A program made the translations under genes and the position numbers. From a virus (Duplodnaviria > Heunggongvirae > Uroviricota > Caudoviricetes), in the IMG/VR virus record IMGVR_UViG_2877251553_000002: a DNA stretch of 34,826 bases; one strand, given 5' to 3'. Shown here one piece after another: positions 1 through 34,826 of the stretch (the first letter of the stretch is position 1; every line of letters starts with the position of its first letter). The notes under the pieces were generated by a model, which did not search any database, was not told where the DNA came from, and was given only the letters and a program-made list of their open reading frames with translations.

Positions 1-381
1 ATGCAGAAAAATGTGAATCCCGGCAGGCGAAAAGGCTGCCCTAATTATCCTCCCGAATTTAAACAGCAGCTCGTTGCTGCCTCCTGTGAACCCGGGATAT
101 CCATCTCAAAACTTGCTCTTGAAAATGGCATTAACGCCAATCTGTTGTTCAAATGGCGACAACAATGGCGCGAGGGAAAGCTGCTATTACCTTCTTCAGA
201 GAGCCCCCAGCTACTTCCTGTGACTCTCGATGCAGCTGCCGAACAGCCAGAATCGCTCGCAGAGGATCCGGAAACCCTCAGTATCAGCTGTGAGGTAACG
301 TTCCGGCACGGGACGCTCCGCTTCAATGGCAATGTCAGCGAAAAGCTCCTGACTCTGCTGATACAGGAACTGAAGCGATGA
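1..381 (+). CDS. IS66-family accessory protein TnpA (orf1), possibly 5' partial at window edge
   Basis: ORF MQKNVNPGRRKGC... identical to orf1 of copies 2 and 3. Confidence 0.8.
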   Translation: MQKNVNPGRRKGCPNYPPEFKQQLVAASCEPGISISKLALENGINANLLFKWRQQWREGKLLLPSSESPQLLPVTLDAAAEQPESLAEDPETLSISCEVTFRHGTLRFNGNVSEKLLTLLIQELKR

Positions 382-725
382 TCCCGTTACCTTCCGGGAC
401 CAAAATTTGGCTGGTTGCCGGTATCACCGATATGAGAAATGGCTTCAACGGCCTGGCGGCAAAGGTGCAGACGACGCTGAAAGACGATCCGATGTCAGGT
501 CACGTTTTTATCTTCCGTGGGCGTAATGGCAGTCAGGTAAAGCTCCTCTGGTCTACCGGCGATGGACTGTGTCTGCTGACCAAACGGCTGGAGCGCGGCC
601 GCTTCGCCTGGCCGTCAGCCCGGGATGGCAAAGTGTTCCTCACACCGGCACAGCTGGCGATGCTCCTTGAAGGTATCGACTGGCGGCAGCCTAAAAGACT
701 GCTTACGTCCCTGACTATGTTGTAA
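378..725 (+). CDS. IS66-family TnpB (orf2)
   Basis: 115-aa ORF MIPLPSGTKIWLVAGITDMRNGF..., ATGA overlap with orf1, conserved IS66 orf2 family. Confidence 0.85.
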   Translation: MIPLPSGTKIWLVAGITDMRNGFNGLAAKVQTTLKDDPMSGHVFIFRGRNGSQVKLLWSTGDGLCLLTKRLERGRFAWPSARDGKVFLTPAQLAMLLEGIDWRQPKRLLTSLTML

Positions 726-773
726 GCCTCTTTATCCTGGTCGACGCTGAATGAGCCTGGTAATATACCCGGT

Positions 774-2311
774 ATGAGCAGCTCACTTCCTGACGATATC
801 AATGCACTGAAACGTCTCCTTGCCGAACAGGAGGCGCTGAACCGTGCCCTGCTGGAAAAGCTGAACGAGCGTGAACGCGAAATAGACCATCTGCAGGCAC
901 AGCTGGATAAGCTGCGCCGGATGAACTTCGGCAGCCGCTCCGAAAAAGTCTCCCGTCGTATCGCACAGATGGAAGCTGACCTGAAGGCACTTCAGAAAGA
1001 AAGTGATACCCTTACCGGTCGGGTTGACGACCCGGCCGTGCAGCGCCCGCTGCGTCAAACCCGCACCCGCAAACCGTTCCCGAATCACTCCCCCGCGATG
1101 AAAAACGGCTGCTGCCGGCAGCGTCATGCTGCCCGGAATGTGGAGGCTCACTGAGCTATCCGGGTGAGGATGCCGCCGAACAGCTGGAGTTGATGCGCAG
1201 CGTCTTCCGGGTTATCCGGACTGTACGTGAAAAGCATGCCTGTACTCAGTGCGATGCCATCGTGCAGGCCCCCGCGCCTTCACGGCCCATCGAGCGGGGT
1301 ATCGCAGGACCGGGGCTGCTGGCCCGCGTGCTGATCTCAAAGTATGCAGAGCACACCCCGCTGTACCGCCAGTATGAAATGTACGGACGCCAGGGCGTGG
1401 AGCTGAGTCGTTCACTGCTGTCGGGCTGGGTGGATGCATGCTGCCGGCTACTGTCACCGCTGGAAGAAGCGCTTCAGGACTATGTGCTGACTGACGGTAA
1501 GCTCCATGCTGATGACACGCCTGTCCCGGTGCTGTTGCCAGGCAATAAGAAAACGAAGACCGGGCGGTTATGGACCTACGTTCGTGACGACCGTAACGCC
1601 GGGTCAACGCTGGCGCCGGCGGTGTGGTTCGCTTACAGCCCGGACAGAAAAGGCATCCATCCGCAGACCCATCTTGCGGGGTTCAGTGGTGTACTGCAGG
1701 CGGATGCATACGCCGGGTTCAACGAGCTGTACCGGGATGGCCGGATAACGGAAGCCGCCTGTTGGGCTCACGCCCGCCGTAAAATCCACGATGTGCACGT
1801 TCGCACCCCGTCAGCCCTGACGGAGGAAGCGCTGAAACGGATCGGCGAACTGTACGCCATCGAGGCAGAGATAAGGGGAATGACGGCGGAGCAGCGCCTT
1901 GCCGAACGTCAGTTGAAAACGAAACCGCTGCTGAAATCCCTGGAAAGCTGGCTGCGTGAAAAGATGAAAACCCTGTCGCGACACTCAGAACTGGCGAAAG
2001 CGTTCGCATACGCCCTGAACCAGTGGCCGGCGCTGACGTACTATGCAGATGATGGCTGGGCTGAGGCGGACAATAACATCGCTGAAAATGCGTTGCGGAT
2101 GGTCAGTCTGGGCCGCAAAAACTACCTGTTCTTCGGTTCGGATCATGGAGGAGAGCGGGGAGCGCTGCTGTACAGCCTGATCGGGACGTGCAAACTGAAC
2201 GGAGTGGAGCCAGAAAGCTACCTCCGCTATGTCCTTGACGTCATAGCCGACTGGCCGATAAACCGGGTCGGCGAACTGCTCCCCTGGCGCGTAGCACTGC
2301 CGACTGAATAA
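774..2311 (+). pseudogene. IS66-family transposase TnpC (orf3), frameshifted
   Basis: ORFs 774-1154 and 1190-2311 together match the intact 512-aa TnpC of copy 3; C-tract at 1079-1081 has 3 C versus 4 C in copy 3. Confidence 0.8.
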
Positions 2312-2344
2312 CACATCCCCGTCAATACGGTTCTTGCTGCACGC

Positions 2345-2701
2345 TTACGATTTTGCCAGCATGACTACCGGGGACAGGCGGCCCAGTGAGTCGGGACCAG
2401 CATTCCAGATACGACCGTTCCATTCAAACGTGAACGGCTTCGCCTCCTGTTCTGCGCGCCATGCTTCAATTTCCTGACGTCTGGCCTCTCTGGCCGCTTC
2501 CTGCATTTCTGGTGTCACAGTGAATGGGGCTATCTCACCCCATTTGCCGCTTTGCAGTTCCTGCCAGATTTGCTGACCCGTCGGAGCGACATCATCAGCG
2601 GTGGCTGTGTAGGGGACTGCCTGGTCCCTGTCGTCAAAAAAAACGTCACAGTCTACTGCGCCACTTTCGGTATAACGGGGATTAATGATTTTTTTAGTTT
2701 C
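2345..2701 (-). CDS. tail fibre assembly (Tfa)-like protein, 3' end probably truncated by IS
   Basis: In-frame GTG at 2701 preceded by GAGGAA; product has no recalled match but sits in Tfa position after a fibre gene; stop codon 2345-2347 lies inside the IS66 terminal repeat. Confidence 0.4.
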   Translation of the reverse strand, partial: ETKKIINPRYTESGAVDCDVFFDDRDQAVPYTATADDVAPTGQQIWQELQSGKWGEIAPFTVTPEMQEAAREARRQEIEAWRAEQEAKPFTFEWNGRIWNAGPDSLGRLSPVVMLAKS

Positions 2702-4123: not shown

Positions 4124-4475
4124 AGTTTTTCTCGCGATAAATTAAATCAGGAAGAAATTTCCGGAGAGGCGGGCCATTCAATGGCGTTGTATGAGGTTTT
4201 ATCAGTGATGACACTGAAATCCATCGCCTGCAGCGATTTCGCGTAAATGCGGTACGCTTTCAGTTTTTCCCGGTCTTCGTCGCTGATTAGCCCCAGCAGC
4301 AGGTCTTCTTCCCATTCCCCTGTCCGGGCACTGACCTGAGCCAGAAGGGCATCACGCTCATCTTCCGCTTTGAGTCTGTAGTCAAAGACAAATTCATCAT
4401 TGCGGTAAAACCAGTAACCCGGCGCGGTAATGCGGCGGTTGGCGGTAATATCAGGAACTTGGTAATGACTCCAAC

Positions 4476-4979
4476 TTACTGATAGTGTTTTATGTTCAGA
4501 TAATGCCCGATGACCTTGTCATGCAGCTCCACCGATTTTGAGAACGACAGTGACTTCCGTCCCAGCCTTGCCAGATGTTGTCTCAGATTCAGATTATGTC
4601 GCTCAATGCGCTGAGTGTAACGCTTGCTGATAACGTGCAGCTTTCCCTTCAGGCGTGATTCATACAGCGGCCAGCCATCCGTCATCCATACCACGACCTC
4701 AAAGGCCGACAGCAGGCTCAGAAGACGCTCCAGTGTGGCCAGAGTGCGTTCACCGAAGACGTGCGCCACAACCGTCCTCCGTATCCTGTCATACGCGTAA
4801 AACAGCCAGCGCTGACGTGATTTAGCACCGACGTAGCCCCACTGTTCGTCCATTTCAGCGCAGACAATCACATCACTGCCCGGTTGTATGCGCGAGGTTA
4901 CCGACTGCGGCCTGAGTTTTTTAAGTGACGTAAAACCGTGTTGAGGCCAACGCCCATAATGCGTGCACTGGCGCGACAT
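4476..4979 (-). CDS. insB: IS1 InsB
   Basis: 167-aa [19 protein letters not shown]... characteristic of IS1. Confidence 0.85.
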
Positions 4980-5173
4980 CCGACGCCATTCATGGCCATA
5001 TCAATGATTTTCTGGTGCGTACCGGGCTGAGAGGCGGTGTAAGTGAACTGTAGTTGCCATGTTTTACGGCAATGAGAGCAGAGATAGCGCTGATGTCCGG
5101 CAGTGCTTTTGCCGTTACGCACCACGCCTTCAGTAGCGGAGCAGGAAGGACATCTGATGGAAATGGAAGCCAC
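4898..5173 (-). CDS. insA: IS1 InsA
   Basis: 91-aa [26 protein letters not shown]... characteristic of IS1. Confidence 0.85.
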
Positions 5174-5471
5174 GCAAGCACCTTAAAATCACCATCATAC
5201 ACTAAATCAGTAAGTTGGCAGCATTACCCAGGAACTTCAATAACACTGGCGTTACGGGGTTCAATGCCTGTCACATCCTTACCGACCCACACCACGCGAC
5301 CGTCTCCGGTGTAAGTTATTTTAATTGTGTCGCTGGCGAAATTCTTCAGCTCTTCATACCAGTTTTTTCCGTCTTCCGAAAAAAGCCAGGTGACATCATA
5401 TTGTTTTGTCAGCTGATATTGTTCCACGGTTTTCGGATTGCCCGCAGTAATATTTTTTAAATGCAACATTG

Positions 5472-8784: not shown

Positions 8785-10022
8785 TTATGCCTCCTGGAGT
8801 TTCACACTGATATCCGACACATCCAGAACCGGAATCTCATCTATCCCGAAAGTGACAGCCGTTGTCCATGACGAACCGTCACGGCTCACAGTAAGGCCCA
8901 GAATATCAATATGTTCCGGATCGGTTTTGTAAATGCCGGCATAGTAGCGCCCGGCAGAGACAACAGAGGCAACCCTTGCCCGCAGACCACCATCTGTACC
9001 ATTAAATGCGTCCAGCACGGATTGCTGTACCTGTCGGGTAATATCTGAAGGCAGGTAGTCACTTTTTTTCAGCGTCACACTGACATGCAGACTGACGGGT
9101 TTGAGTGTCTGCCAGCTGATTACGTATTCAGGATACGGCGGATCGTACTCCTTATCTGCAACAGTGAACGTTGTGTTGCCATTCATATCAATACCCGGCG
9201 GAGCCTTACGCCAGATGGCCGCCGCGATATCTGCCGGGCTGCCGCCGTACACGCCAACATAAAGCGAACCGGGTGTTAATGGATACTGACTGACTCCGGC
9301 TTTTTGTTCTGTTTTTTTCGGATTATGGGGGACGTAAACATCCACCACGTTTTCTACCGTGGAGAGTATTTCACCCCGGATGGCTTCCAGAATATTCCGG
9401 GCATTACGGGCAACTGAATTACGTCGGCGGTTTTCAAAGTCCGCACGGGTTTCCTCATCGCTGCCCGGCACACCGGCACGGGCGTTAGTGACACCTGACC
9501 AGCCAGGTATTGCCTTATAAATTTTATTCAGCGTCCCCACAGGACAGCCGACGGGGCCGGTGGACAAATTCAGAAATACCGCATCAACCTGCCCTGATGC
9601 GCCGATAGTGACGTCTGACTGACATACTTATAACCGGCCTCATCCTGCCCCATACTGCCCGCCGGGATCAGCGTGCCAACCAGCCCGGTACAGGTCGCTG
9701 TTACTGTCGTACCTGTGGCCCCACGGCGCTCCAGGAAATAAATCCTGCCTATTGCATCCTGAAAGCGACCACTGGAAAAGTCAGGGTTGATCTGGTTAAC
9801 GATATACAGCAACTGATCGTTTTTATCCGCAATAATGGCGCTTTCGCTGGATGCAAGTTGTCCCTGCGGACTGCTCAGACTGGTACTCATGGCCCCGCCC
9901 AGCGCCGCCGAAAAATCAGCAAGCCTGCCGCTCAGAATATCCGCTTCATCCGGCACATTCAGCCCGCTATCCGAAATCTGTACAGCGGGCACTGCGGTAG
10001 AAAAAGATTTATTTTCACTCAT
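8785..10022 (-). pseudogene. baseplate J-like protein, frameshifted
   Basis: ORFs 9570-10022 and 8785-9567 are adjacent in different frames and together resemble a ~410-aa baseplate J-family protein; frame change near a GTCAGTCAG repeat around 9600. Confidence 0.6.
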
Positions 10023-12212: not shown

Positions 12213-12922
12213 CAGGTGATCCCCCTGTTCGTGGCGCTTCGTCTGTCAGCGTCTGACGGTTGTGTCTCCGACGCCGTAACTGGCTGCGTTTTAACCGATG
12301 CGGCCCCTTTTGCTTTATCGTTGTCCGTGGGAGACGACTTATCCGTACTTCCCACTGACACCTCTCCTGTATTCATTACGGTCTGAAATACCGCAGTAAC
12401 CGTCAGTAAGGTCGGACCATTATTACTTCGCATTCGGTAGTCATATTTCACAAGGTCGCAGGATGTCCATGTCTTGTCCGGCGTCTCAATATCGTAGAGT
12501 CCTGCCGTGGTACGCATCCTTTCAAGCGTTTCCAGCACATTCGTCCGCGAGGTGGTGGAAAAATTTGTCAGGTTCGGGACGGATCCGGAAAAGGCCGTCC
12601 ACCCCTCTACAGTGAAAGTCACATGCAGTTCCGGCGATCTCTGGATTTTATTAAAGGTGGTATAAGCCCCCTGCTCCACGGGGACGGTGGAAACAGAAGC
12701 CTCCGCGCCCACCTCAACGACAACAAAAGAATCCGGGGAGAAAGGTTTGCCACCCTTCTGATGGGCACCTGCCGGATCATTCCGTGCGTAATAAATACCG
12801 AATGACGGTGCCAGTACACTATTAATGAGTCCCAGGACACAGCCGCCACGAACTGCACTCAGTACGTTACTTTCACTGAGCGAAAAGTTATTCAGGGAAA
12901 TATTATCGAAAGAAAAACTCAT
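12212..12922 (-). CDS. phage tail protein, hypothetical
   Basis: 236-aa ORF immediately downstream of the tape measure gene. Confidence 0.35.
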
Positions 12923-14938
12923 CCTGTTACCCCGCTGGAATAAACCGACACAAGCGCCGAATTCGTGATACGCCGACGTGCGTCATCGGTAATACCCTTC
13001 ACATTGTCCGACGTTGTGGTGACATTCAGTGTCCCGATATGCGTGGTTTCCGTTACGGTGGACTGCGATACAGGCGCAGGATGGAGCGACCGTATGGCCA
13101 TTGCCGCACCCGGATAAGGCAGGTTCGCCAGCACCCGCGGAATATAGTTGCGGGTCTCCTCCGGAGCAGCAGCCAGTCCCTTACGCTGAACATTTCCCTC
13201 TCCACAGTTATATGCCGCCAGAGCCTTAGCCAGATCGCCATGAAAAAAACGTATCAGGCCACCAAGTTTTCTCGCGGCGGCATCAGCGGCTTTTTCGGGA
13301 TCAAAGGCATCGTTCCCCCTCAGACCAAATTCACTGGCCGTCTTCGGCATGAACTGAAACAGTCCCATCGCACCAGCAGGTGAGACGGCAAACTGATTAC
13401 CACGGGATTCGGTGATCGCAACGCTGCGCAGCAGTCCGGGCGGCAGGTTATATTTTTCCTCCAGTTGAGACAGTTTCGGTTGCAGCCAGCCTAACAGGGC
13501 TTCCCCGGTCTTCGTCGGTCGCTGGCGGTTTTGCATGGCATTACCGAGTTTTTCCTGCGTCGCACGCATACCCTGTAGCCAGGATTCACCGAAGGCTGCT
13601 TCCCTCCCGGTTGCCTGAGAAGCCTGAGTATCCAGCATGCCCTGCTGCCATACTGTGGGTGATTGTGCCCGGGTGATGTTGCCAGGCTTTTCTCCGGCAT
13701 CCAGTTTTGTCTGATACGTCTCCATCTCTTTCTTATTGAAAAAGAAAGTCCCGTCTGAAGCCCAGAAAAAACCATGTGAATCCAGCCAGTCCTTATTTTC
13801 CCTGCCAACAATGGATGTCAGTAATCCGTCAACAACCGGGTAAAGCGCCGTTATCGCAAAAAGAAGGCCTCCGGGGCCACTGAGGGCTTTTGTCAGCCCC
13901 CGCACCCATGACGCCACTTTCAGCCCGATCAGCGTAATAATGACATTCTGCCAGCCCCCAGTTCTCCGGCAGCCTTATTCGCTAGGGAGGCCACTGACTC
14001 AACGTCATTCAGAAATGTGGTGATAAACCTGTTCACTTCCTCCGGATGTTGCTGCATCCAGTCACCGAGTGTCTCCAGCCAGTGGCTGAGCTTCAGCGCG
14101 TACGGCATCAACGCGGTGCTAATCGTCATCCCGATGCCGGACCAGGTCTGATCGAGCTCAACAAGCTCTTTTCGTAGCTTACGGGCCAGCGCTGTACGCC
14201 CCGGCGTAACCTGCGAACGGGAAGTAAATTCGTCCACATCTTTCAGCGCATGACCGGAGCCAAGAAACTGCTGTCCGGCATAACTGAAGCCCAGCGCGTT
14301 GCCGTAGGCAGTTTGTTCGGACTTTGTCAGTCGCGGAAAAATAACCGCCAGCTTGCGCATGATGGCTTCAGTGCTGTCAGTATTTAAATCAACACTAATG
14401 CCCGCCCTGGCTGCAACCTGAAACAAATCCTGTAACACAGGATCAAAGGACCTTCCGGCTCTGAAGGCCGCTTTTGCATTTGCAAGCCGGGAAAATGCCC
14501 CAGACATTTCCCCTTCATCAACATTATTTGCCCGCGCAGCCCGTAACCATCCGTCCAGATTTCTGGCCTTCATGCCAAAAGCATCGGATTCCACGGACAG
14601 ACGGTTCAGATCACGGGCAAAACCTGTTACCAGGTTCTTCAGCCCCCCAGCGTCAGACTGACACCCGCAAGAGCCAGAATCTCGCTACGGATTCCTGAAA
14701 AAAAACGGGACGCCCGTTTCCCGGCATCTTCCATTCGACGGGCCGTTTTATCAGCATCTTTTCCGGTTTTTTCCAGTGATTCACTGGTTTTCTTCTGTCC
14801 CTGACTGAATGTGTCAGCGACACCTTCCATCACCGTCGTGAGCCGGTTAAGGGCAGCATGTACTGCCTGTTCCCCGGCAGTAAAGTCCCTGTCATCAATC
14901 CCGAGGGACAGAACAAGCTCATCAAGTACCTGCGCCAT
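12919..14938 (-). pseudogene. tail tape measure protein with C-terminal lytic transglycosylase (SLT) domain, split over three frames
   Basis: ORFs 14639-14938, 13929-14594 and 12919-13917 are consecutive in different frames; the last has an SLT-like signature (ESRGNQFAVSPAGAMGLFQFMP...AAYNCGEGNV). Confidence 0.55.
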
Positions 14939-15290
14939 TTCTGTTCTCCTGTATCACCTGTTCGTTATGGGCATCCACATGAATTATTTCCAGCAGATCC
15001 CATAAGTCCTGCACACCAAGGACAGAATCCAGTTCAGCTTTTGAAGCCTTACCGGAGGAGATAACGGTCGCAATGGTACGGGGAACATTAACGTAATCCA
15101 CCACCCCGAACGGTCTGTCGGGGTCGAGATAACGCGGGGGATATCTAGCTGACGACGGTAGCGAAAAAATCCACATGCAGCTTAAAGACCTCCGCACGCA
15201 GATTAAGACGGGTAATGATTTCTTCAATATCCTCTTCAACAAGCGGTCTCCGGATGCTGCGTTTTTTCGGATCGGGAACAAACTGCACAC
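14922..15290 (-). CDS. ORF overlapping the 3' end of the tail chaperone gene in the +1 frame (possible frameshift extension)
   Basis: Protein-like acidic sequence (...PFGVVDYVNVPRTIATVISSGKASKAELDSVLGVQDLWDLLEIIH...) spanning the chaperone-tape measure gap; no convincing own start signal. Confidence 0.3.
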   Translation of the reverse strand: MCSLFPIRKNAASGDRLLKRILKKSLPVLICVRRSLSCMWIFSLPSSARYPPRYLDPDRPFGVVDYVNVPRTIATVISSGKASKAELDSVLGVQDLWDLLEIIHVDAHNEQVIQENRNGAGT

Positions 15291-15549
15291 AGTCCATCAT
15301 TTCATCCATCAACGGACGCGCCTCATCAGGCGGAATTTTCGATAATGCTTTCAGCCCTTCAAGGGCAAGCGCAGCCATCCCCAGACTACGAACATCATCC
15401 GGTAACTCCACGCCACCACGCCCCATTGCCATAATGGCACGCATCGCCCACCATTCCGCCTGTGAGGCAGACATTTCGGTAAGATGAAATACCTTGCCCT
15501 TATCCCGTCCCTGACCTTCAATAGTGATAAATTTCTCTTTACGGGCCAT
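15145..15549 (-). CDS. tail assembly chaperone
   Basis: 134-aa helical acidic protein between tube and tape measure genes, the conserved chaperone position; ends with a T-rich heptamer (GAT TTT TTC). Confidence 0.5.
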   Translation of the reverse strand: MARKEKFITIEGQGRDKGKVFHLTEMSASQAEWWAMRAIMAMGRGGVELPDDVRSLGMAALALEGLKALSKIPPDEARPLMDEMMDCVQFVPDPKKRSIRRPLVEEDIEEIITRLNLRAEVFKLHVDFFATVVS

Positions 15550-15887
15550 CAGTTAAAAACCTCCGGAGTAATGGTTTCCCACTCAATAACCGCCTGCCCT
15601 GGCTGCAACGTACGAGCTGCATCAGGCAGCGCTTTCCATTGTTTGAGTACGCCATTCACGCAGGTATATTTACGGCCAATCGCCGGAAGCAGGACGACAG
15701 CGTTACAACGGAATACAGCCCGACTGGCCCGGATGTGGTTGACCAGGTATCAAAAATATCCCGGCTGGGGGAATCCGGCATGATATGAAACGTCTGGATA
15801 ATGTTGCTGTACACAAATCCCGCGGACAGTTTGGTAATGCTGCCAACTTACTGATTTAGTGTATGATGGTGATTTTAAGGTGCTTGC

Positions 15888-16163
15888 GTGGCTTCCATTT
15901 CCATCAGATGTCCTTCCTGCTCCGCTACTGAAGGCGTGGTGCGTAACGGCAAAAGCACTGCCGGACATCAGCGCTATCTCTGCTCTCATTGCCGTAAAAC
16001 ATGGCAACTACAGTTCACTTACACCGCCTCTCAGCCCGGTACGCACCAGAAAATCATTGATATGGCCATGAATGGCGTCGGATGTCGCGCCAGTGCACGC
16101 ATTATGGGCGTTGACCTCAACACGGTTTTCCGTCACTTAAAAAACTCAGGCCGCAGTCGGTAA
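15888..16163 (+). CDS. insA: IS1 InsA
   Basis: 91-aa ORF, two substitutions relative to the copy at 4898-5173. Confidence 0.85.
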
Positions 16164-16189
16164 CCTCGCGCATACAACCGGGCAGTGAT

Positions 16190-16585
16190 GTGATTGTCTG
16201 CGCTGAAATGGACGAACAGTGGGGCTACGTCGGTGCTAAATCACGTCAGCGCTGGCTGTTTTACGCGTATGACAGGATACGGAGGACGGTTGTGGCGCAC
16301 GTCTTCGGTGAACGCACTCTGGCCACACTGGAGCGTCTTCTGAGCCTGCTGTCGGCCTTTGAGGTCGTGGTATGGATGACGGATGGCTGGCCGCTGTATG
16401 AATCACGCCTGAAGGGAAAGCTGCACGTTATCAGCAAGCGTTACACTCAGCGCATTGAGCGACATAATCTGAATCTGAGACAACATCTGGCAAGGCTGGG
16501 ACGGAAGTCACTGTCGTTCTCAAAATCGGTGGAGCTGCATGACAAGGTCATCGGGCATTATCTGAACATAAAACACTATCAGTAA
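16190..16585 (+). CDS. insB: IS1 InsB (N-terminal region carries a TGG to TGA change relative to copy 1)
   Basis: 131-aa ORF matching the C-terminal 131 aa of InsB; the upstream in-frame segment has a stop at codon 11. Confidence 0.7.
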
Positions 16586-17949
16586 GTTGGAGTCATTACC
16601 GACAGTTTACCGTCAATACCGCGGGCAGTTTCCGCCAGTACCAGTGGATCGGTGCCATAAACGTTATCTGTTGCAAATCCCTGAAGTCGTACGCCGGAGG
16701 GATACAGATTATTCACTGTCAGCGTGATAATGGCATCCGCCGCAGTGATGGTGTTGTTGTTACCCGACATTTACTGGACCTCCGTGGATGCAATAACAAG
16801 TTTCTGGATACTACCGCCGTCACAGTACCAGAGCGTACAGGACGGACTGCTACGGGTTGCCCGCAAAGAGGGAAGCATATCGCCGATATACAGGTAATAG
16901 CCGGTGGCAAACAACGTTGAAGAAACATCTGCCTCCACAACATTGTTAATCTGTTTCTTCTGCGCCTCCGTCAGTGTCACCCCTTCACGGATCCCTCCCC
17001 AGCGTTTGTACTGCTGGATAACGTCACTCATTGACGCTGCAACCAGCGCCCGCCCTTCATTGTTGTAGGGGACCGTCTGGTTTGACTTGAATAATGCGAT
17101 CACCGCCCCTGCAAACTGGCATTCAGCCAGATTTGCCCGCAGAAACTGTCCAGCCATTTAAAATCACCGGTAATAGTGCCATCCGCCCAGTAATCTTCCA
17201 CCACACTGTTTTCCGCATATTTTCCGTAGAAATTGTAACCTGCGGCGATCAGCGCATCATAATCGCTGCCACTGGTAACATCAGCGGCCAGCCCCTCATA
17301 CTCGCGGAACTTGAATGATACACGCCCCTCTGGTCGGATAAAATCAAGGCACGCTGCATACCCCAGTACCGCTGCAGCCCGGTTACCATCAGTCGCGAAA
17401 ACAGGTACAACAGAGCTGTAGTTATTGACAGCAATTATCTGGTAAGCGATGTGTTCAGTACTGCCTTTTACTCTGGCGTTGCCGCTGGTTGTCCATGCCA
17501 CATAAAAGTAACGCTTGCCCTGCCCGTTTGCCCATGCAGAAAACGCCAGGTGTTGCTCGTCAGTGACCTCAGATACCGTGGAAAAACCCGCCCATTGCTG
17601 GGAAGCGGCCTTAATGGCTGCCATTGTGTCAGGGACATCAGATACAGGCGCGCCCCGGGATATCACCGCACCGGTGTTACTGGTCATCTTCAGGAGTTCT
17701 GCTGCCGATCCACTGCCGAACGTTATCGTGGTACTCCCGGGTTTCGCCCCGGCGACAGTAATGACAAAAGCATTCTGTGTGGTATCGAATACCACTGTAG
17801 CCACTGCTGCGGTCAGCGCTGTCTGTAGTGCCGTTGCAGCAGCGGCGAAGCTGGCGACACCGTTAAAATTCACTTCAATGCTGACGCTTTTCCCGTTAAT
17901 ACTCAGCATCAGCGTAAGCGTGCAGCAAGAACCGTATTGACGGGATGTG

Positions 17950-19487
17950 TTATTCAGTCGGCAGTGCTACGCGCCAGGGGAGCAGTTCGCCGACCCGGTT
18001 TATCGGCCAGTCGGCTATGACGTCAAGTACATAGCGGAGGTAGCTTTCTGGCTCCACTCCGTTCAGTTTGCACGTCCCGATCAGGCTGTACAGCAGCGCT
18101 CCCCGCTCTCCTCCATGATCCGAACCGAAGAACAGGTAGTTTTTGCGGCCCAGACTGACCATCCGCAACGCATTTTCAGCGATGTTATTGTCCGCCTCAG
18201 CCCAGCCATCATCTGCATAGTACGTCAGCGCCGGCCACTGGTTCAGGGCGTATGCGAACGCTTTCGCCAGTTCTGAGTGTCGCGACAGGGTTTTCATCTT
18301 TTCACGCAGCCAGCTTTCCAGGGATTTCAGCAGCGGTTTCGTTTTCAACTGACGTTCGGCAAGGCGCTGCTCCGCCGTCATTCCCCTTATCTCTGCCTCG
18401 ATGGCGTACAGTTCGCCGATCCGTTTCAGCGCTTCCTCCGTCAGGGCTGACGGGGTGCGAACGTGCACATCGTGGATTTTACGGCGGGCGTGAGCCCAAC
18501 AGGCGGCTTCCGTTATCCGGCCATCCCGGTACAGCTCGTTGAACCCGGCGTATGCATCCGCCTGCAGTACACCACTGAACCCCGCAAGATGGGTCTGCGG
18601 ATGGATGCCTTTTCTGTCCGGGCTGTAAGCGAACCACACCGCCGGCGCCAGCGTTGACCCGGCGTTACGGTCGTCACGAACGTAGGTCCATAACCGCCCG
18701 GTCTTCGTTTTCTTATTGCCTGGCAACAGCACCGGGACAGGCGTGTCATCGCATGGAGCTTACCGTCAGTCAGCACATAGTCCTGAAGCGCTTCTTCCAG
18801 CGGTGACAGTAGCCGGCAGCATGCATCCACCCAGCCCGACAGCAGTGAACGACTCAGCTCCACGCCCTGGCGGCCGTACATTTCAGACTGGCGGTACAGC
18901 GGGGTGTGCTCTGCATACTTTGAGATCAGCACGCGGGCCAGCAGCCCCGGTCCTGCGATACCCCGCTCGATGGGCCGTGAAGGCGCGGGGGCCTGCACGA
19001 TGGCATTGCACTGAGTACAGGCATGCTTTTCACGTACAGTCCGGATAACCCGGAAGACGCTGCGCATCAACTCCAGCTGTTCGGCGGCATCCTCACCCGG
19101 ATAGCTCAGTGAGCCTCCACATTCCGGGCAGCATGACGCTGCCGGCAGCAGCCGTTTTTCATCGCGGGGGAGTGATTCGGGGAACGGTTTGCGGGTGCGG
19201 GTTTGACGCAGCGGGCGCTGCACGGCCGGGTCGTCAACCCGACCGGTAAGGGTATCACTTTCTTTCTGAAGTGCCTTCAGGTCAGCTTCCATCTGTGCGA
19301 TACGACGGGAGACTTTTTCGGAGCGGCTGCCGAAGTTCATCCGGCGCAGCTTATCCAGCTGTGCCTGCAGATGGTCTATTTCGCGTTCACGCTCGTTCAG
19401 CTTTTCCAGCAGGGCACGGTTCAGCGCCTCCTGTTCGGCAAGGAGACGTTTCAGTGCATTGATATCGTCAGGAAGTGAGCTGCTCAT
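17950..19487 (-). pseudogene. IS66-family transposase TnpC, frameshifted
   Basis: ORFs 18513-19487 and 17950-18732 match the intact copy-3 TnpC; 1-bp deletion near 18750 (GTCATCGCATGG versus GTCATCAGCATGG). Confidence 0.8.
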
Positions 19488-19535
19488 ACCGGGTATATTA
19501 CCAGGCTCATTCAGCGTCGACCAGGATAAAGAGGC

Positions 19536-19883
19536 TTACAACATAGTCAGGGACGTAAGCAGTCTTTTAGGCTGCCGCCAGTCGATACCTTCAAGGAGCA
19601 TCGCCAGCTGTGCCGGTGTGAGGAACACTTTGCCATCCCGGGCTGACGGCCAGGCGAAGCGGCCGCGCTCCAGCCGTTTGGTCAGCAGACACAGTCCATC
19701 GCCGGTAGACCAGAGGAGCTTTACCTGACTGCCATTACGCCCACGGAAGATAAAAACGTGACCTGACATCGGAGCGTCTTTCAGCGTCGTCTGCACCTTT
19801 GCCGCCAGGCCGTTGAAGCCATTTCTCATATCGGTGATACCGGCAACCAGCCAAATTTTGGTCCCGGAAGGTAACGGGATCAT
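19536..19883 (-). CDS. IS66-family TnpB (orf2)
   Basis: 115-aa ORF, one substitution relative to the other copies. Confidence 0.85.
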   Translation of the reverse strand: MIPLPSGTKIWLVAGITDMRNGFNGLAAKVQTTLKDAPMSGHVFIFRGRNGSQVKLLWSTGDGLCLLTKRLERGRFAWPSARDGKVFLTPAQLAMLLEGIDWRQPKRLLTSLTML

Positions 19884-20281
19884 CGCTTCAGTTCCTGTAT
19901 CAGCAGAGTCAGGAGCTTTTCGCTGACATTGCCATTGAAGCGGAGCGTCCCGTGCCGGAACGTTACCTCACAGCTGATACTGAGGGTTTCCGGATCCTCT
20001 GCGAGCGATTCTGGCTGTTCGGCAGCTGCATCGAGAGTCACAGGAAGTAGCTGGGGGCTCTCTGAAGAAGGTAATAGCAGCTTTCCCTCGCGCCATTGTT
20101 GTCGCCATTTGAACAACAGATTGGCGTTAATGCCATTTTCAAGAGCAAGTTTTGAGATGGATATCCCGGGTTCACAGGAGGCAGCAACGAGCTGCTGTTT
20201 AAATTCGGGAGGATAATTAGGGCAGCCTTTTCGCCTGCCGGGATTCACATTTTTCTGCATATCTGACACTTTGGTTCCCAC
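19880..20281 (-). CDS. IS66-family TnpA (orf1)
   Basis: 133-aa ORF MGTKVSDMQKNV...; true start may be the internal Met at 20260. Confidence 0.8.
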   Translation of the reverse strand: MGTKVSDMQKNVNPGRRKGCPNYPPEFKQQLVAASCEPGISISKLALENGINANLLFKWRQQWREGKLLLPSSESPQLLPVTLDAAAEQPESLAEDPETLSISCEVTFRHGTLRFNGNVSEKLLTLLIQELKR

Positions 20282-20681
20282 TACTTATTTGGTGGACACC
20301 ACTTTGTCTAATTCGTCAGATTCTGACCAGACGGTTCAGGCTGTACGCTTACGCATCAGCGTGCCGGAAAGTTTTTGTAGCTGTTCAACAGTCGCGCCCT
20401 TAAACGAACCGCTACGTAACCAGGCCGCCGATGGGGCAGGACTGAAACGGGAAAACAACAATTGCCCCGGCGTCCTGGTGGCATTTTTGAAGCCCTGGAA
20501 ATAAAGCTGAGCGCGTGCGTACTCATCGGATAATGCACCAAAATACGCGGCCACATCATCCGGAGAGGAAAACGGAACCACAGTGCCGACCGGAAGTAAC
20601 GGATTACTGGTCAACAGCAGGCCGTTAAGATCGACGGCATTACCCGCCACAGCCAGCACACCGGGATTTATCTGTACATCT

Positions 20682-22609: not shown

Positions 22610-23677
<1,068 letters not shown>

Positions 23678-23686
23678 ATGGCGACA

Positions 23687-23902
23687 TTATTCACCTCTCG
23701 CAGCCTTACGCTTATCTTCTCTTATTTTGAAATACAGATTCGTCAGATAAGTCAGAAGCCCCAGAAGCAGACTTCCCAGCACACCAATCGCAGCCCACTG
23801 TGATGGACTGACCTGATCCAACCACTGCAAAAACCAGTAGCCGGCACTGCCGGCGGAGGTGCCGTAGGCAATGCCCGTTGAAATTTTGTCCATGGATTTC
23901 AT
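23687..23902 (-). CDS. class II holin (phage 21 S / EssD-like)
   Basis: 71-aa protein [30 protein letters not shown]... with two hydrophobic segments and charged C-terminus, closely resembling lambdoid S21-type holins. Confidence 0.8.
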
Positions 23903-24585: not shown

Positions 24586-25886
<1,301 letters not shown>

Positions 25887-26224
25887 CTGATAAAAGCGCC
25901 CTGTACTGGTTAGCAATAGCAAATTTACTACCAGCTGCTCTGATTTCAAGAAAGCTGTACACCTCCCTTATGCCTATATTTTTAACCGGAACACCACCAA
26001 AGTATTCACTTATGATTTTCAACCTCTGGTTGTGTCTTTTCATGGTGTTTGTGCTTAATTGTCTACGCTCTATTTCATTTCTGAAATTTAATATCAGCTC
26101 GCAGAATAATGTTACGCTATTACCTTTTATTCTATCCAGTAAGCTTATATGTTGCGTGGATAATAATTCCATATTTGCCGCAATAGCCTCATTAACTGCA
26201 ATTCTTTTGTCTCTTCCGATTCCA
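25887..26224 (-). pseudogene. lambda-family integrase, internal N-proximal fragment
   Basis: Reads ...GIGRDKRIAVNEAIAANMELL...NSVTL...AIANQYRALLS up to the IS911 junction, colinear with lambda Int residues ~36-160; 5' end replaced by an IS1 terminus at 26225. Confidence 0.8.
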
Positions 26225-26352
26225 GGTGATGACTCCAACTTACTGATAGTGTTTTATGTTCAGATAATGCCCGATGACCTTGTCATGCAGCTCCACCGAT
26301 TTTGAGAACGACAGTGACTTCCGTCCCAGCCTTGCCAGATGTTGTCTCAGAG
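26225..26352 (-). mobile_element. IS1 terminal fragment (~128 bp)
   Basis: GGTGATGACTCCAACTTACTGATAGTGTTTTATGTTCAGATAATGCCCGATGAC... matches the IS1 end at 4461-4590, then is cut by the ISEc8-like terminus at 26353. Confidence 0.8.
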
Positions 26353-26388
26353 TAAGCGTGCAGCAAGAACCGTATTGACGGGGATGTG

Positions 26389-27927
26389 TTATTCAGTCGG
26401 CAGTGCTACGCGCCAGGGGAGCAGTTCGCCGACCCGGTTTATCGGCCAGTCGGCTATGACGTCAAGTACATAGCGGAGGTAGCTTTCTGGCTCCACTCCG
26501 TTCAGTTTGCACGTCCCGATCAGGCTGTACAGCAGCGCTCCCCGCTCTCCTCCATGATCCGAACCGAAGAACAGGTAGTTTTTGCGGCCCAGACTGACCA
26601 TCCGCAACGCATTTTCAGCGATGTTATTGTCCGCCTCAGCCCAGCCATCATCTGCATAGTACGTCAGCGCCGGCCACTGGTTCAGGGCGTATGCGAACGC
26701 TTTCGCCAGTTCTGAGTGTCGCGACAGGGTTTTCATCTTTTCACGCAGCCAGCTTTCCAGGGATTTCAGCAGCGGTTTCGTTTTCAACTGACGTTCGGCA
26801 AGGCGCTGCTCCGCCGTCATTCCCCTTATCTCTGCCTCGATGGCGTACAGTTCGCCGATCCGTTTCAGCGCTTCCTCCGTCAGGGCTGACGGGGTGCGAA
26901 CGTGCACATCGTGGATTTTACGGCGGGCGTGAGCCCAACAGGCGGCTTCCGTTATCCGGCCATCCCGGTACAGCTCGTTGAACCCGGCGTATGCATCCGC
27001 CTGCAGTACACCACTGAACCCCGCAAGATGGGTCTGCGGATGGATGCCTTTTCTGTCCGGGCTGTAAGCGAACCACACCGCCGGCGCCAGCGTTGACCCG
27101 GCGTTACGGTCGTCACGAACGTAGGTCCATAACCGCCCGGTCTTCGTTTTCTTATTGCCTGGCAACAGCACCGGGACAGGCGTGTCATCAGCATGGAGCT
27201 TACCGTCAGTCAGCACATAGTCCTGAAGCGCTTCTTCCAGCGGTGACAGTAGCCGGCAGCATGCATCCACCCAGCCCGACAGCAGTGAACGACTCAGCTC
27301 CACGCCCTGGCGGCCGTACATTTCAGACTGGCGGTACAGCGGGGTGTGCTCTGCATACTTTGAGATCAGCACGCGGGCCAGCAGCCCCGGTCCTGCGATA
27401 CCCCGCTCGATGGGCCGTGAAGGCGCGGGGGCCTGCACGATGGCATCGCACTGAGTACAGGCATGCTTTTCACGTACAGTCCGGATAACCCGGAAGACGC
27501 TGCGCATCAACTCCAGCTGTTCGGCGGCATCCTCACCCGGATAGCTCAGTGAGCCTCCACATTCCGGGCAGCATGACGCTGCCGGCAGCAGCCGTTTTTC
27601 ATCGCGGGGGAGTGATTCGGGGAACGGTTTGCGGGTGCGGGTTTGACGCAGCGGGCGCTGCACGGCCGGGTCGTCAACCCGACCGGTAAGGGTATCACTT
27701 TCTTTCTGAAGTGCCTTCAGGTCAGCTTCCATCTGTGCGATACGACGGGAGACTTTTTCGGAGCGGCTGCCGAAGTTCATCCGGCGCAGCTTATCCAGCT
27801 GTGCCTGCAGATGGTCTATTTCGCGTTCACGCTCGTTCAGCTTTTCCAGCAGGGCACGGTTCAGCGCCTCCTGTTCGGCAAGGAGACGTTTCAGTGCATT
27901 GATATCGTCAGGAAGTGAGCTGCTCAT
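26389..27927 (-). CDS. IS66-family transposase TnpC, intact (512 aa)
   Basis: Single uninterrupted ORF; the only intact TnpC among the three copies. Confidence 0.85.
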
Positions 27928-27975
27928 ACCGGGTATATTACCAGGCTCATTCAGCGTCGACCAGGATAAAGAGGC

Positions 27976-28323
27976 TTACAACATAGTCAGGGACGTAAGC
28001 AGTCTTTTAGGCTGCCGCCAGTCGATACCTTCAAGGAGCATCGCCAGCTGTGCCGGTGTGAGGAACACTTTGCCATCCCGGGCTGACGGCCAGGCGAAGC
28101 GGCCGCGCTCCAGCCGTTTGGTCAGCAGACACAGTCCATCGCCGGTAGACCAGAGGAGCTTTACCTGACTGCCATTACGCCCACGGAAGATAAAAACGTG
28201 ACCTGACATCGGATCGTCTTTCAGCGTCGTCTGCACCTTTGCCGCCAGGCCGTTGAAGCCATTTCTCATATCGGTGATACCGGCAACCAGCCAAATTTTG
28301 GTCCCGGAAGGTAACGGGATCAT
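27976..28323 (-). CDS. IS66-family TnpB (orf2)
   Basis: 115-aa ORF identical to copy 1. Confidence 0.85.
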   Translation of the reverse strand: MIPLPSGTKIWLVAGITDMRNGFNGLAAKVQTTLKDDPMSGHVFIFRGRNGSQVKLLWSTGDGLCLLTKRLERGRFAWPSARDGKVFLTPAQLAMLLEGIDWRQPKRLLTSLTML

Positions 28324-28721
28324 CGCTTCAGTTCCTGTATCAGCAGAGTCAGGAGCTTTTCGCTGACATTGCCATTGAAGCGGAGCGTCCCGTGCCGGAA
28401 CGTTACCTCACAGCTGATACTGAGGGTTTCCGGATCCTCTGCGAGCGATTCTGGCTGTTCGGCAGCTGCATCGAGAGTCACAGGAAGTAGCTGGGGGCTA
28501 TCTGAAGAAGGTAATAGCAGCTTTCCCTCGCGCCATTGTTGTCGCCATTTGAACAACAGATTGGCGTTAATGCCATTTTCAAGAGCAAGTTTTGAGATGG
28601 ATATCCCGGGTTCACAGGAGGCAGCAACGAGCTGCTGTTTAAATTCGGGAGGATAATTAGGGCAGCCTTTTCGCCTGCCGGGATTCACATTTTTCTGCAT
28701 ATCTGACACTTTGGTTCCCAC
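28320..28721 (-). CDS. IS66-family TnpA (orf1)
   Basis: 133-aa ORF; alternative start at 28700. Confidence 0.8.
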   Translation of the reverse strand: MGTKVSDMQKNVNPGRRKGCPNYPPEFKQQLVAASCEPGISISKLALENGINANLLFKWRQQWREGKLLLPSSDSPQLLPVTLDAAAEQPESLAEDPETLSISCEVTFRHGTLRFNGNVSEKLLTLLIQELKR

Positions 28722-28818
28722 TACTTATTTGGTGGACACCACTTTGTCTAATTCGTCAGATTCTGACCAGACGGTTCAGGCTGTACGCTTACGTTTTTAT
28801 AATCCGGCCATGACATTT

Positions 28819-32888: not shown

Positions 32889-32970
32889 ATGAGCATGAAA
32901 CTAATGGCAAAAGCAATGGAAATTAAAGTGGGTAATCCATTGCGTAAGCTGGTTCTGATTAAGCTGGCTG
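32889..32970 (+). pseudogene. 5' fragment of a gene cut by IS911 (possibly replication-initiator O-like)
   Basis: MSMKLMAKAMEIKVGNPLRKLVLIKLA runs directly into the IS911 left end at 32971. Confidence 0.3.
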
Positions 32971-33042
32971 TGAAGTGGCACACTGAATTTGGCCACCTGA
33001 ACAGAGGTGATATGCTCACCTCAGAACAACACAGGTGCTCCA

Positions 33043-34826
<1,784 letters not shown>

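What the first reader, a model, noticed from the sequence alone, without database searches (positions are those of the whole stretch)
14922..15549. Tail chaperone with overlapping downstream ORF: frameshift-extension candidate in the +1 frame
The chaperone ORF ends at a T-rich heptamer (GAT TTT TTC), and a second protein-like ORF overlaps its last 145 nt and extends to the tape measure start, the arrangement of conserved G/GT-type programmed frameshifts. However the extension lies in the +1 frame, not -1, and the -1 frame, although open for 56 codons, encodes an Arg/Trp/Pro-rich junk-like sequence. Either this is a rare +1 programmed shift, an independent small gene with a non-canonical start, or a mutational indel in this decayed prophage.
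Basis: partly seen in the sequence, partly recalled or inferred. Interest (0 to 1): 0.4.

Follow-up and report, generated by a model that had tools for sequence, protein, structure and literature searches.

The report
Tail chaperone frameshift broken by deletion
This is the ordinary −1 "G/GT" frameshift site of a phage tail-assembly chaperone; a one-base deletion inherited in this bacterial lineage has moved the downstream part into the +1 frame, so it is a mutated prophage gene and not a rare +1 recoding signal.

Summary
On the minus strand, a 134-aa tail assembly chaperone (15549..15145) carries an in-frame T_TTT_TTC heptamer (15169..15163). A protein-like extension runs to 14922, where the tape-measure gene starts, and lies in the +1 frame.

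The +1 frame comes from a mutation. An intact E. coli prophage is identical over 661 nt except that a C6 run, 5 nt after the chaperone stop, is C5 here (15140..15136). With C6 the extension is in the −1 frame, and a slip on T_TTT_TTC gives a 209-aa fusion.

I analysed 111 homologous loci from Enterobacterales, Burkholderia, Pseudomonas, Aeromonas, Acinetobacter and Acetobacteraceae.
- The extension is in the −1 frame in 100 loci.
- It is in the +1 frame only in the window and six near-identical assemblies of the same lineage.
- 107 loci keep an in-frame T6 heptamer.

The C5 allele also occurs in other assemblies, including a read-run (Logan) assembly, so it looks inherited and not a sequencing error. 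A −1 frameshift was already proposed for the homologous Burkholderia phage ΦE067 chaperone (PMC7266877).

Verdict: a known mechanism, inactivated here. Low interest.

The parts
15145..15549 (-). Tail assembly chaperone gene (G-like), 134 aa, intact
   Evidence: ORF list. phrog_1932 'tail assembly chaperone' E=3e-59. 100% identical to the intact E. coli prophage gene WP_000101350.1.
15163..15169 (-). In-frame −1 slippery heptamer T_TTT_TTC (codons GAT TTT TTC = D127 F128 F129)
   Evidence: Sequence. An in-frame T6 heptamer sits at the same place in 107 of 111 homologous loci: 102 TTTTTTC, 3 TTTTTTT, 2 TTTTTTA. Two more loci have GGGTTTT. Neighbouring synonymous sites vary freely.
15136..15140 (-). 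C5 homopolymer, the site of a 1-nt deletion (C6 in intact relatives). It would encode I-P-P of the fusion linker in the −1 frame.
   Evidence: It is the only difference in the 661-nt alignment to E. coli CFSAN029787. C5 occurs only in the window's lineage, C6 elsewhere, and C7 in L031.
14922..15144 (-). T-like extension domain, now in the +1 frame and uncoupled from the slippery site. Ancestrally it was in the −1 frame.
   Evidence: phrog_3976 E=4e-32. tblastn places the homologous segment in the −1 frame in 100 of 111 loci.
14984..15181 (-). −1 frame open stretch. Its first 9 residues after the slip (RYRRQLDIP) are the true linker; the rest is out-of-frame junk caused by the deletion.
   Evidence: Window −1 product...HVDFF|RYRRQLDIPRVISTPTDRSGWW...; intact product...HVDFF|RYRRQLDIPPRYLDPDRPFG...
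12919..14938 (-). Tape measure / lytic tail protein gene with an SLT domain. It is one 673-aa ORF in intact relatives. Here it is split into three ORFs (14938..14639, 14594..13929, 13917..12919) by G-run contractions at 14649 and 13960.
   Evidence: phrog_2013 E=8e-246 for the intact version.
15833..16600 (.). IS1 copy inserted in the tail tube gene directly upstream of the chaperone gene
   Evidence: The alignment to L001 breaks at window 15832/16601. InsA/InsB ORFs. IS1 matches.

Best explanation
The locus is a standard lambda-G/GT-type pair of tail assembly chaperone products from a contractile-tailed (E217/Pam3-like tail module) prophage. In the ancestral, intact form most ribosomes finish the 134-aa chaperone. 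A minority slip −1 on T_TTT_TTC, 22 nt before the stop, and continue through a short linker (RYRRQLDIPP) into an ~70-aa T-like domain, giving a 209-aa fusion that ends where the tape-measure gene starts.

In the window's lineage one C was lost from a C6 run 5 nt past the chaperone stop. The chaperone ORF and slippery site are untouched. A −1 slip now gives a 188-aa product with 50 junk residues, and the real T domain is stranded in the +1 frame.

Shown: the frames, the deletion, and conservation of the −1 arrangement and heptamer. Inferred: that slippage occurs, that the fusion is needed for tail assembly (by analogy with lambda G/GT), and that the deletion therefore abolishes function.
For: - The alignment with the intact E. 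coli CFSAN029787 prophage is identical over 661 nt except C6 against C5. There the −1 frame is open from 12 nt upstream of the heptamer to the tape-measure start.
- Of 111 homologous loci, the T homology is in the −1 frame in 100. It is in the +1 frame only in the window and 6 near-identical assemblies, and in frame 0 in one locus with C7.
- The in-frame heptamer is conserved: 102 TTTTTTC, 3 TTTTTTT, 2 TTTTTTA, 2 GGGTTTT. Asp is always GAT and the first Phe always TTT, while the nearby Phe is mostly TTC and the His and Val codons vary.
- The predicted intact fusion is 209 aa. The window's −1 product diverges exactly at the deleted base.
- The C5 allele recurs in CP034935.1, UGGJ01000001.1 and the Logan assembly of run ERR5984625, where the tape measure is intact at 673 aa. 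So the deletion is inherited and older than the other damage.
- A −1 programmed frameshift (GGGTTTT, 204-aa gp16.1) was already proposed for the homologous chaperone of Burkholderia phage ΦE067 (PMC7266877). That phage is hit H34, 49.6% identical.
- The G/GT mechanism is reviewed in PMC5009743.
Against: - No experiment on this family shows the fusion protein. In the paper passage I read the ΦE067 frameshift is presented as a sequence-based prediction.
- No stimulatory RNA structure is detectable downstream (z=−0.78). From my own knowledge, lambda G/GT needs none.
- One homologue, Klebsiella phage ST15-VIM1phi2.1 (L018), has the −1 arrangement without a canonical heptamer.
- Assemblies of this lineage carry scattered G-run indels that look like long-read errors, so a systematic miscall of the C run is not fully excluded.
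Confidence: 0.9

Rival explanations
1. This is a genuine programmed +1 (or −2) frameshift. Ribosomes shift forward on the T6 run and make a G-T fusion with the linker (S)LPSSARYPP, so the C5 lineage keeps a working chaperone pair by a rare recoding mode.
For: - tRNA-Phe can re-pair perfectly after a +1 move on UUU UUC, and the predicted +1/−2 products (208/209 aa) carry the complete T domain.
- The C5 allele occurs in some assemblies whose sheath, tube or tape-measure genes are still intact (L113, L114, L115).
Against: - The +1 arrangement is confined to one near-clonal lineage. All other relatives (100 of 111 loci) use −1 with the same heptamer, which is a −1 motif.
- There is no +1 stimulator: no in-frame stop or rare codon in the A site after the T run. 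The next codon is GCT.
- The linker differs from the conserved RYRRQLDIPP/LDIPP.
- The prophage in the window is dead anyway, with IS1 in the tube gene, an IS66-family element in the sheath gene and a split tape measure.
Confidence: 0.03
2. The missing C is an assembly or sequencing error in a homopolymer. The real genome has C6 and a normal −1 arrangement.
For: - All six 1-nt indels between the window and the intact relative over 6.9 kb are contractions of G/C runs.
- Near-identical assemblies of this lineage differ from each other almost only by scattered, phylogenetically incoherent G-run indels. This is typical of unpolished long-read assemblies.
Against: - C5 is present in every assembly of the lineage examined (window, L022-L024, L026-L028, L111-L115), from several projects and including a Logan assembly of run ERR5984625. 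I did not verify that run's sequencing platform.
- Other assemblies of the same accession series show C6 (L021, L025, L029).
- In L022-L028 and L113, C5 goes with the IS1 insertion in the tube gene, which fits shared ancestry; L114 carries C5 with an uninterrupted tube gene.
- The random-looking errors occur in only 1 to 4 of 7 assemblies per site.
Confidence: 0.05
3. The downstream ORF is an independent small gene with its own start, as PGAP annotates it in E. coli (60 aa, GTG start). No frameshift is involved in any relative.
For: The records annotate it as a separate 'hypothetical protein' of 48 to 70 aa. Some relatives have ATG codons in the linker.
Against: - Homology in the −1 frame (LDIPPRY..., conserved from E. 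coli to Pantoea, Serratia and Xenorhabdus) begins across the chaperone stop codon, upstream of the annotated starts.
- The frame relation (−1), the open overlap and the heptamer are conserved at 36-100% protein identity. An independent gene would not need any of these.
- Phe codon choice at the heptamer is fixed against the local preference.
Confidence: 0.04

Closest known systems
Phage lambda G/GT tail assembly chaperones (−1 programmed ribosomal frameshift; Levin et al. 1993, Xu et al. 2004, reviewed in PMC5009743)
   Same: - Gene order is tube, then chaperone, then extension, then tape measure.
- The short chaperone ORF has an in-frame X_XXY_YYZ heptamer near its 3' end.
- The extension is in the −1 frame in intact relatives and ends at the tape-measure start.
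- No downstream RNA structure is evident.
   Different: - There is no detectable sequence similarity to lambda G/T, and no Pfam hit.
- The heptamer is T_TTT_TTC; lambda's is G_GGA_AAG (own knowledge).
- The tail here is contractile (DUF3383/E217_gp31 sheath).
- In the window the extension is knocked into +1 by a deletion.
Burkholderia phage ΦE067 ORF16/ORF16.1 (PMC7266877)
   Same: It is a true homologue, with 49.6% identity to the window's chaperone over 129 aa (H34), and sits at the same position before the tape measure. The published prediction is a −1 frameshift giving a 204-aa fusion; the intact E. coli relative gives 209 aa.
   Different: - The slip site there is GGGTTTT, not TTTTTTC.
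- In the sister phage phiE131 (L015) the chaperone has a longer C-terminal tail, and an HNH endonuclease gene lies between the extension and the tape measure.
- That phage is functional and was isolated from a B. thailandensis strain (PMC7266877).
Phage P2 E/E+E' (−1 frameshift in a myovirus)
   Same: It is a contractile-tail phage using the same G/GT logic between the tube and tape-measure genes (PMC5009743).
   Different: I tested no sequence relationship. P2's slip site is reportedly also T-rich, but that is from my own knowledge and unverified here.
Known +1 frameshifts in tailed-virus tail or structural genes (for example the haloarchaeal myovirus HSTV-2, per PMC5009743)
   Same: Only the superficial +1 frame relation seen in the window.
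   Different: The +1 relation here is unique to one mutated lineage and arises from a documented 1-nt deletion. It is not a conserved design.

Membership tests
G/GT-type tail assembly chaperone pair with −1 programmed frameshift | The two ORFs lie between the tail tube gene and the tape measure gene | tested here: met
   The order is tube (E217_Gp32 family), then chaperone, then extension, then an SLT-domain tape measure, in the window and in L001.
G/GT-type tail assembly chaperone pair with −1 programmed frameshift | The second ORF overlaps the 3' end of the first in the −1 frame | tested here: not met
   In the window it is +1. It is met in 100 of 111 homologous loci, including an E. coli copy that differs by one base over 661 nt. 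The ancestral locus is therefore a member, and the window holds a mutated one.
G/GT-type tail assembly chaperone pair with −1 programmed frameshift | An in-frame X_XXY_YYZ slippery heptamer lies inside the overlap | tested here: met
   T_TTT_TTC at 15169..15163 lies inside the −1-open stretch that starts at 15181. It is conserved in 107 of 111 loci.
G/GT-type tail assembly chaperone pair with −1 programmed frameshift | A fusion protein is made at a low, fixed ratio and is required for tail assembly | not testable with these tools
   This needs proteomics or genetics. For this family I found only a prediction from sequence, for ΦE067.
phrog_1932 (tail assembly chaperone) and phrog_3976 (unannotated small ORF downstream) | A profile match over the full length | tested here: met
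   Chaperone residues 1-131 match profile positions 1-131 of 134, E=3e-59. The extension matches positions 7-66 of 67, E=4e-32.
Programmed +1 ribosomal frameshift site | The +1 frame relation is conserved among homologues | tested here: not met
   It is +1 only in the window and 6 near-identical assemblies that share the C5 deletion.
Programmed +1 ribosomal frameshift site | A slow-to-decode A-site codon (stop or rare codon) follows the shift codon | tested here: not met
   The codon after TTT TTC is GCT (Ala), and the stop is 5 codons further on. Rarity was judged from my general knowledge of E. coli codon usage and was not computed.

The most novel reading that the evidence does not exclude
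The C5 allele might be tolerated because the T6 run supports enough +1/−2 slippage to make a working G-T fusion with an altered linker. One heptamer would then serve either direction of shift, and C5/C6/C7 length changes in the C run (all three are seen) would act as a switch for tail production in these prophages.
Probability: 0.03. Interest if true: 0.55.

Novelty: already known. Interest (0 to 1): 0.08.

Why it matters
It matters mainly for annotation.
- In this phage family (phrog_1932 + phrog_3976) the extension is annotated as a separate 'hypothetical protein' in the E. coli RefSeq record and in all five phage records I fetched that annotate it. It should instead be joined to the chaperone by a −1 frameshift at T_TTT_TTC.
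- An apparent '+1' arrangement in an IS-riddled prophage should first be checked against intact relatives for a homopolymer indel.

It opens no new biological question.

Tried and rejected
- DNA search of the phage collection with the 1.3-kb region gave only IS1 hits and one weak Pantoea hit. The protein search was needed to find relatives.
- Pfam has no family for the chaperone, the extension or the N-terminal tape-measure fragments.
- I looked for a stimulatory RNA structure downstream of the heptamer in the intact version. Its MFE is not different from shuffles (z=−0.78), so I dropped it.
- I considered that the whole +1 appearance is a long-read homopolymer error. The indel pattern made this attractive. 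I rejected it as the main explanation because the C5 allele recurs across projects, including a Logan read-run assembly, and in most carriers goes with the IS1 insertion.
- I considered a +1/−2 rescue. The products are possible on paper, but nothing in the comparative data supports them.
- I could not name the source organism. The window is 100% identical over 6.3 kb to GCA_002949915.1 / CP026825.1, but no tool gave that record's organism name. The IS load suggests Shigella or an IS-rich E. coli, which is my own inference.

Full report
**Observation**

The genes are on the minus strand.
- A 134-aa ORF (15549..15145) ends ...KLHVDFFATVVS-TAG.
- A second ORF (15290..14922) overlaps its last 146 nt. 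It is offset by +1 and stops 17 nt inside the next gene, whose ATG is at 14938.
- The first ORF matches phrog_1932 'tail assembly chaperone' at E=3e-59.
- The part of the second ORF beyond the chaperone stop matches phrog_3976 at E=4e-32.
- The downstream gene is a tape measure / lytic tail protein with an SLT domain.
- The codons GAT TTT TTC (15171..15163) contain an in-frame T_TTT_TTC heptamer 22 nt before the stop.
- The −1 frame is open from 15181 to 14984 but reads as low-quality sequence.

**What decides the frame question**

Eight complete E. coli genomes carry this segment over its full length at 99.5-99.8% identity, each spanning 662 nt against the 661-nt query. A ninth matches only the first 381 nt.

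I aligned one of them, strain CFSAN029787, whose prophage has an uninterrupted sheath, tube, chaperone and 673-aa tape measure. The two sequences are identical except for one base. A run of six C's lying 5 nt after the chaperone stop is five C's in the window, at 15140..15136.

With C6 the extension is in the −1 frame, and that frame is open from 12 nt upstream of the heptamer to the tape-measure start. A −1 slip on T_TTT_TTC then gives ...HVDFF-RYRRQLDIPPRYLDPDRPFGVVDYVNVPRTIATV...NGAGT, 209 aa in all. In the window the same slip gives ...HVDFF-RYRRQLDIP-RVISTPTDRSGWW..., 188 aa.

**Comparative test**

I collected homologues from three sources:
- the phage record collection (then);
- one genome per species;
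- IMG/VR.

For each locus I located the chaperone and the T-like segment by tblastn and recorded their frame relation. Across 111 loci, chaperone identity to the window ranged from 36% to 100%. The hosts were E. coli, Serratia, Xenorhabdus, Pantoea, Winslowiella, Klebsiella, Edwardsiella, Aeromonas, Pseudomonas, Acinetobacter, Burkholderia and acetic acid bacteria.

| T-like segment relative to the chaperone | Loci |
|---|---|
| −1 frame | 100 |
| +1 frame (the window and six near-identical assemblies) | 7 |
| Frame 0 (L031, where the same run is C7) | 1 |
| Not detected by BLAST, although the −1 frame is open | 3 |

An in-frame slippery heptamer inside the −1 overlap was found in 109 loci: TTTTTTC in 102, TTTTTTT in 3, TTTTTTA in 2 and GGGTTTT in 2.

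Among the 42 distinct sequences that carry the T-run site, which were picked by searching for GATTTTTT itself, the flanking His, Val, Leu and Lys codons vary synonymously. The Phe five codons upstream is TTC in 31 and TTT in 8. Fixing of the run is therefore shown by the 107/111 count, not. Together this points to selection on the nucleotide run itself.

In the −1 frame a conserved LDIPP motif is encoded directly across the chaperone stop codon. That is upstream of the start codons annotators gave the small ORF, which argues against an independent gene.

**Is the deletion real?**

There is reason for caution.
- All six single-base indels between the window and the intact relative over 6.9 kb are contractions of G/C runs.
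- Near-identical assemblies of the same lineage differ from one another mostly by scattered G-run indels with no coherent distribution. This looks like residual long-read assembly error.

The C5 allele behaves differently.
- It is present in all assemblies that share the IS1 insertion in the tube gene.
- It is present in CP034935.1, in UGGJ01000001.1 and in a Logan assembly of run ERR5984625.
- It is absent from other assemblies of the same accession series (L021, L025, L029).
- In CP034935.1 and the Logan contig the tape measure is an intact 673-aa ORF.

The C deletion therefore appears inherited and older than the other lesions. Conversely, the two tape-measure frameshifts in the window (14649 and 13960) may be recent mutations or assembly errors. 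I put about 5% on the C5 call being an artefact.

**State of the prophage**

Relative to the intact E. coli copy, the window has:
- IS1 inserted in the tail tube gene (15833..16600);
- an IS66-family element in the sheath gene (17909..20353);
- a further G-run difference that splits the sheath 3' part;
- a 1-nt loss in the tube gene (15733);
- the two tape-measure breaks;
- G-run losses in the spike gene (10840, 10462);
- a 4-nt loss in the baseplate J gene (9624).

The element cannot make tails, whatever happens at the chaperone.

**Mechanism**

By analogy with lambda G/GT (PMC5009743), the chaperone coats the tape measure and the rarer fusion uses its T domain to recruit the tube protein. 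The frameshift sets the ratio of the two products.

- Shown here: the sequence anatomy and its conservation.
- Inferred: slippage, stoichiometry and function.

I found no downstream stimulatory structure. A sequence-based prediction of the same −1 event has been published for the homologous chaperone of Burkholderia phage ΦE067 (GGGTTTT, 204-aa gp16.1; PMC7266877). That phage is among my hits at 49.6% identity.

**Rivals**

- A true +1/−2 shift on the T run would rebuild a fusion with the linker (S)LPSSARYPP. It has no comparative support, no +1 stimulator and a non-conserved linker.
- An independent small gene is contradicted by the conserved frame, overlap and heptamer.
- A sequencing artefact is unlikely, as discussed above.

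**Verdict**

This is a known mechanism in a known family. It is inactivated here by a one-base deletion that mimics a +1 arrangement. Its only practical value is for annotation.

Noticed in passing
window 10462, 10840, 13960, 14649, 15140, 15733, and 17110/17000 compared with L022-L028: Every 1-nt indel relative to the intact E. coli prophage is a contraction of a G/C homopolymer. Near-identical public assemblies of this lineage differ from each other almost only by scattered G-run indels, with 0 to 5 substitutions over 6.3 kb. This looks like long-read assembly error, so some 'pseudogenes' in this window, including the split tape measure, may be artefacts.
   Followed up: partly
L031 (IMGVR_UViG_2537561977_000012), the homologue of window 15136..15140: The same C run is C7 in this contig, which puts the T domain in frame 0 behind the stop. 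C5, C6 and C7 alleles all exist, so the run is either a mutational hotspot or a sequencing hotspot.
   Followed up: no
window 1..2349, 17909..20353, 26347..28793; 4456..5228, 15833..16607; 22958..23688, 24628..25887, 32970..34227: The window is crowded with insertion sequences: three copies of a 2.45-kb IS66-family element (one cut by the window edge), two IS1 copies plus a 127-bp IS1 fragment at 26225..26351, and three copies (one partial) of a 1.26-kb IS. The IS66-family copies differ by a few substitutions and 1-nt indels. One of these indels splits the transposase of the copy at 17950..19487.
   Followed up: partly
L018 (Klebsiella phage ST15-VIM1phi2.1), 1908..2198: This homologue has the T domain in the −1 frame with a 67-nt open overlap, but no canonical X_XXY_YYZ heptamer; the equivalent site reads GCT TTT GTA. 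Where it shifts, if it does, is unclear.
   Followed up: no
L015 (Burkholderia phage phiE131), 2114..2605: An HNH homing endonuclease gene sits between the chaperone extension and the tape measure gene. This interrupts the otherwise tight chaperone / extension / tape-measure arrangement.
   Followed up: no
window 9621..9627: A 4-nt deletion (GTCA of a GTCAGTCAGTCA repeat) relative to the intact relative falls in the baseplate J/gp47-family gene.
   Followed up: no
L001 6458..6640; L002 4435..4617; L016 1896..2072; L017 1986..2132; L019 1941..2153; L020 1944..2096: In the E. coli RefSeq record and in these five phage records the T-like extension is annotated as a free-standing 'hypothetical protein'. 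The starts chosen differ from record to record, and none annotates the −1 frameshift fusion.
   Followed up: yes
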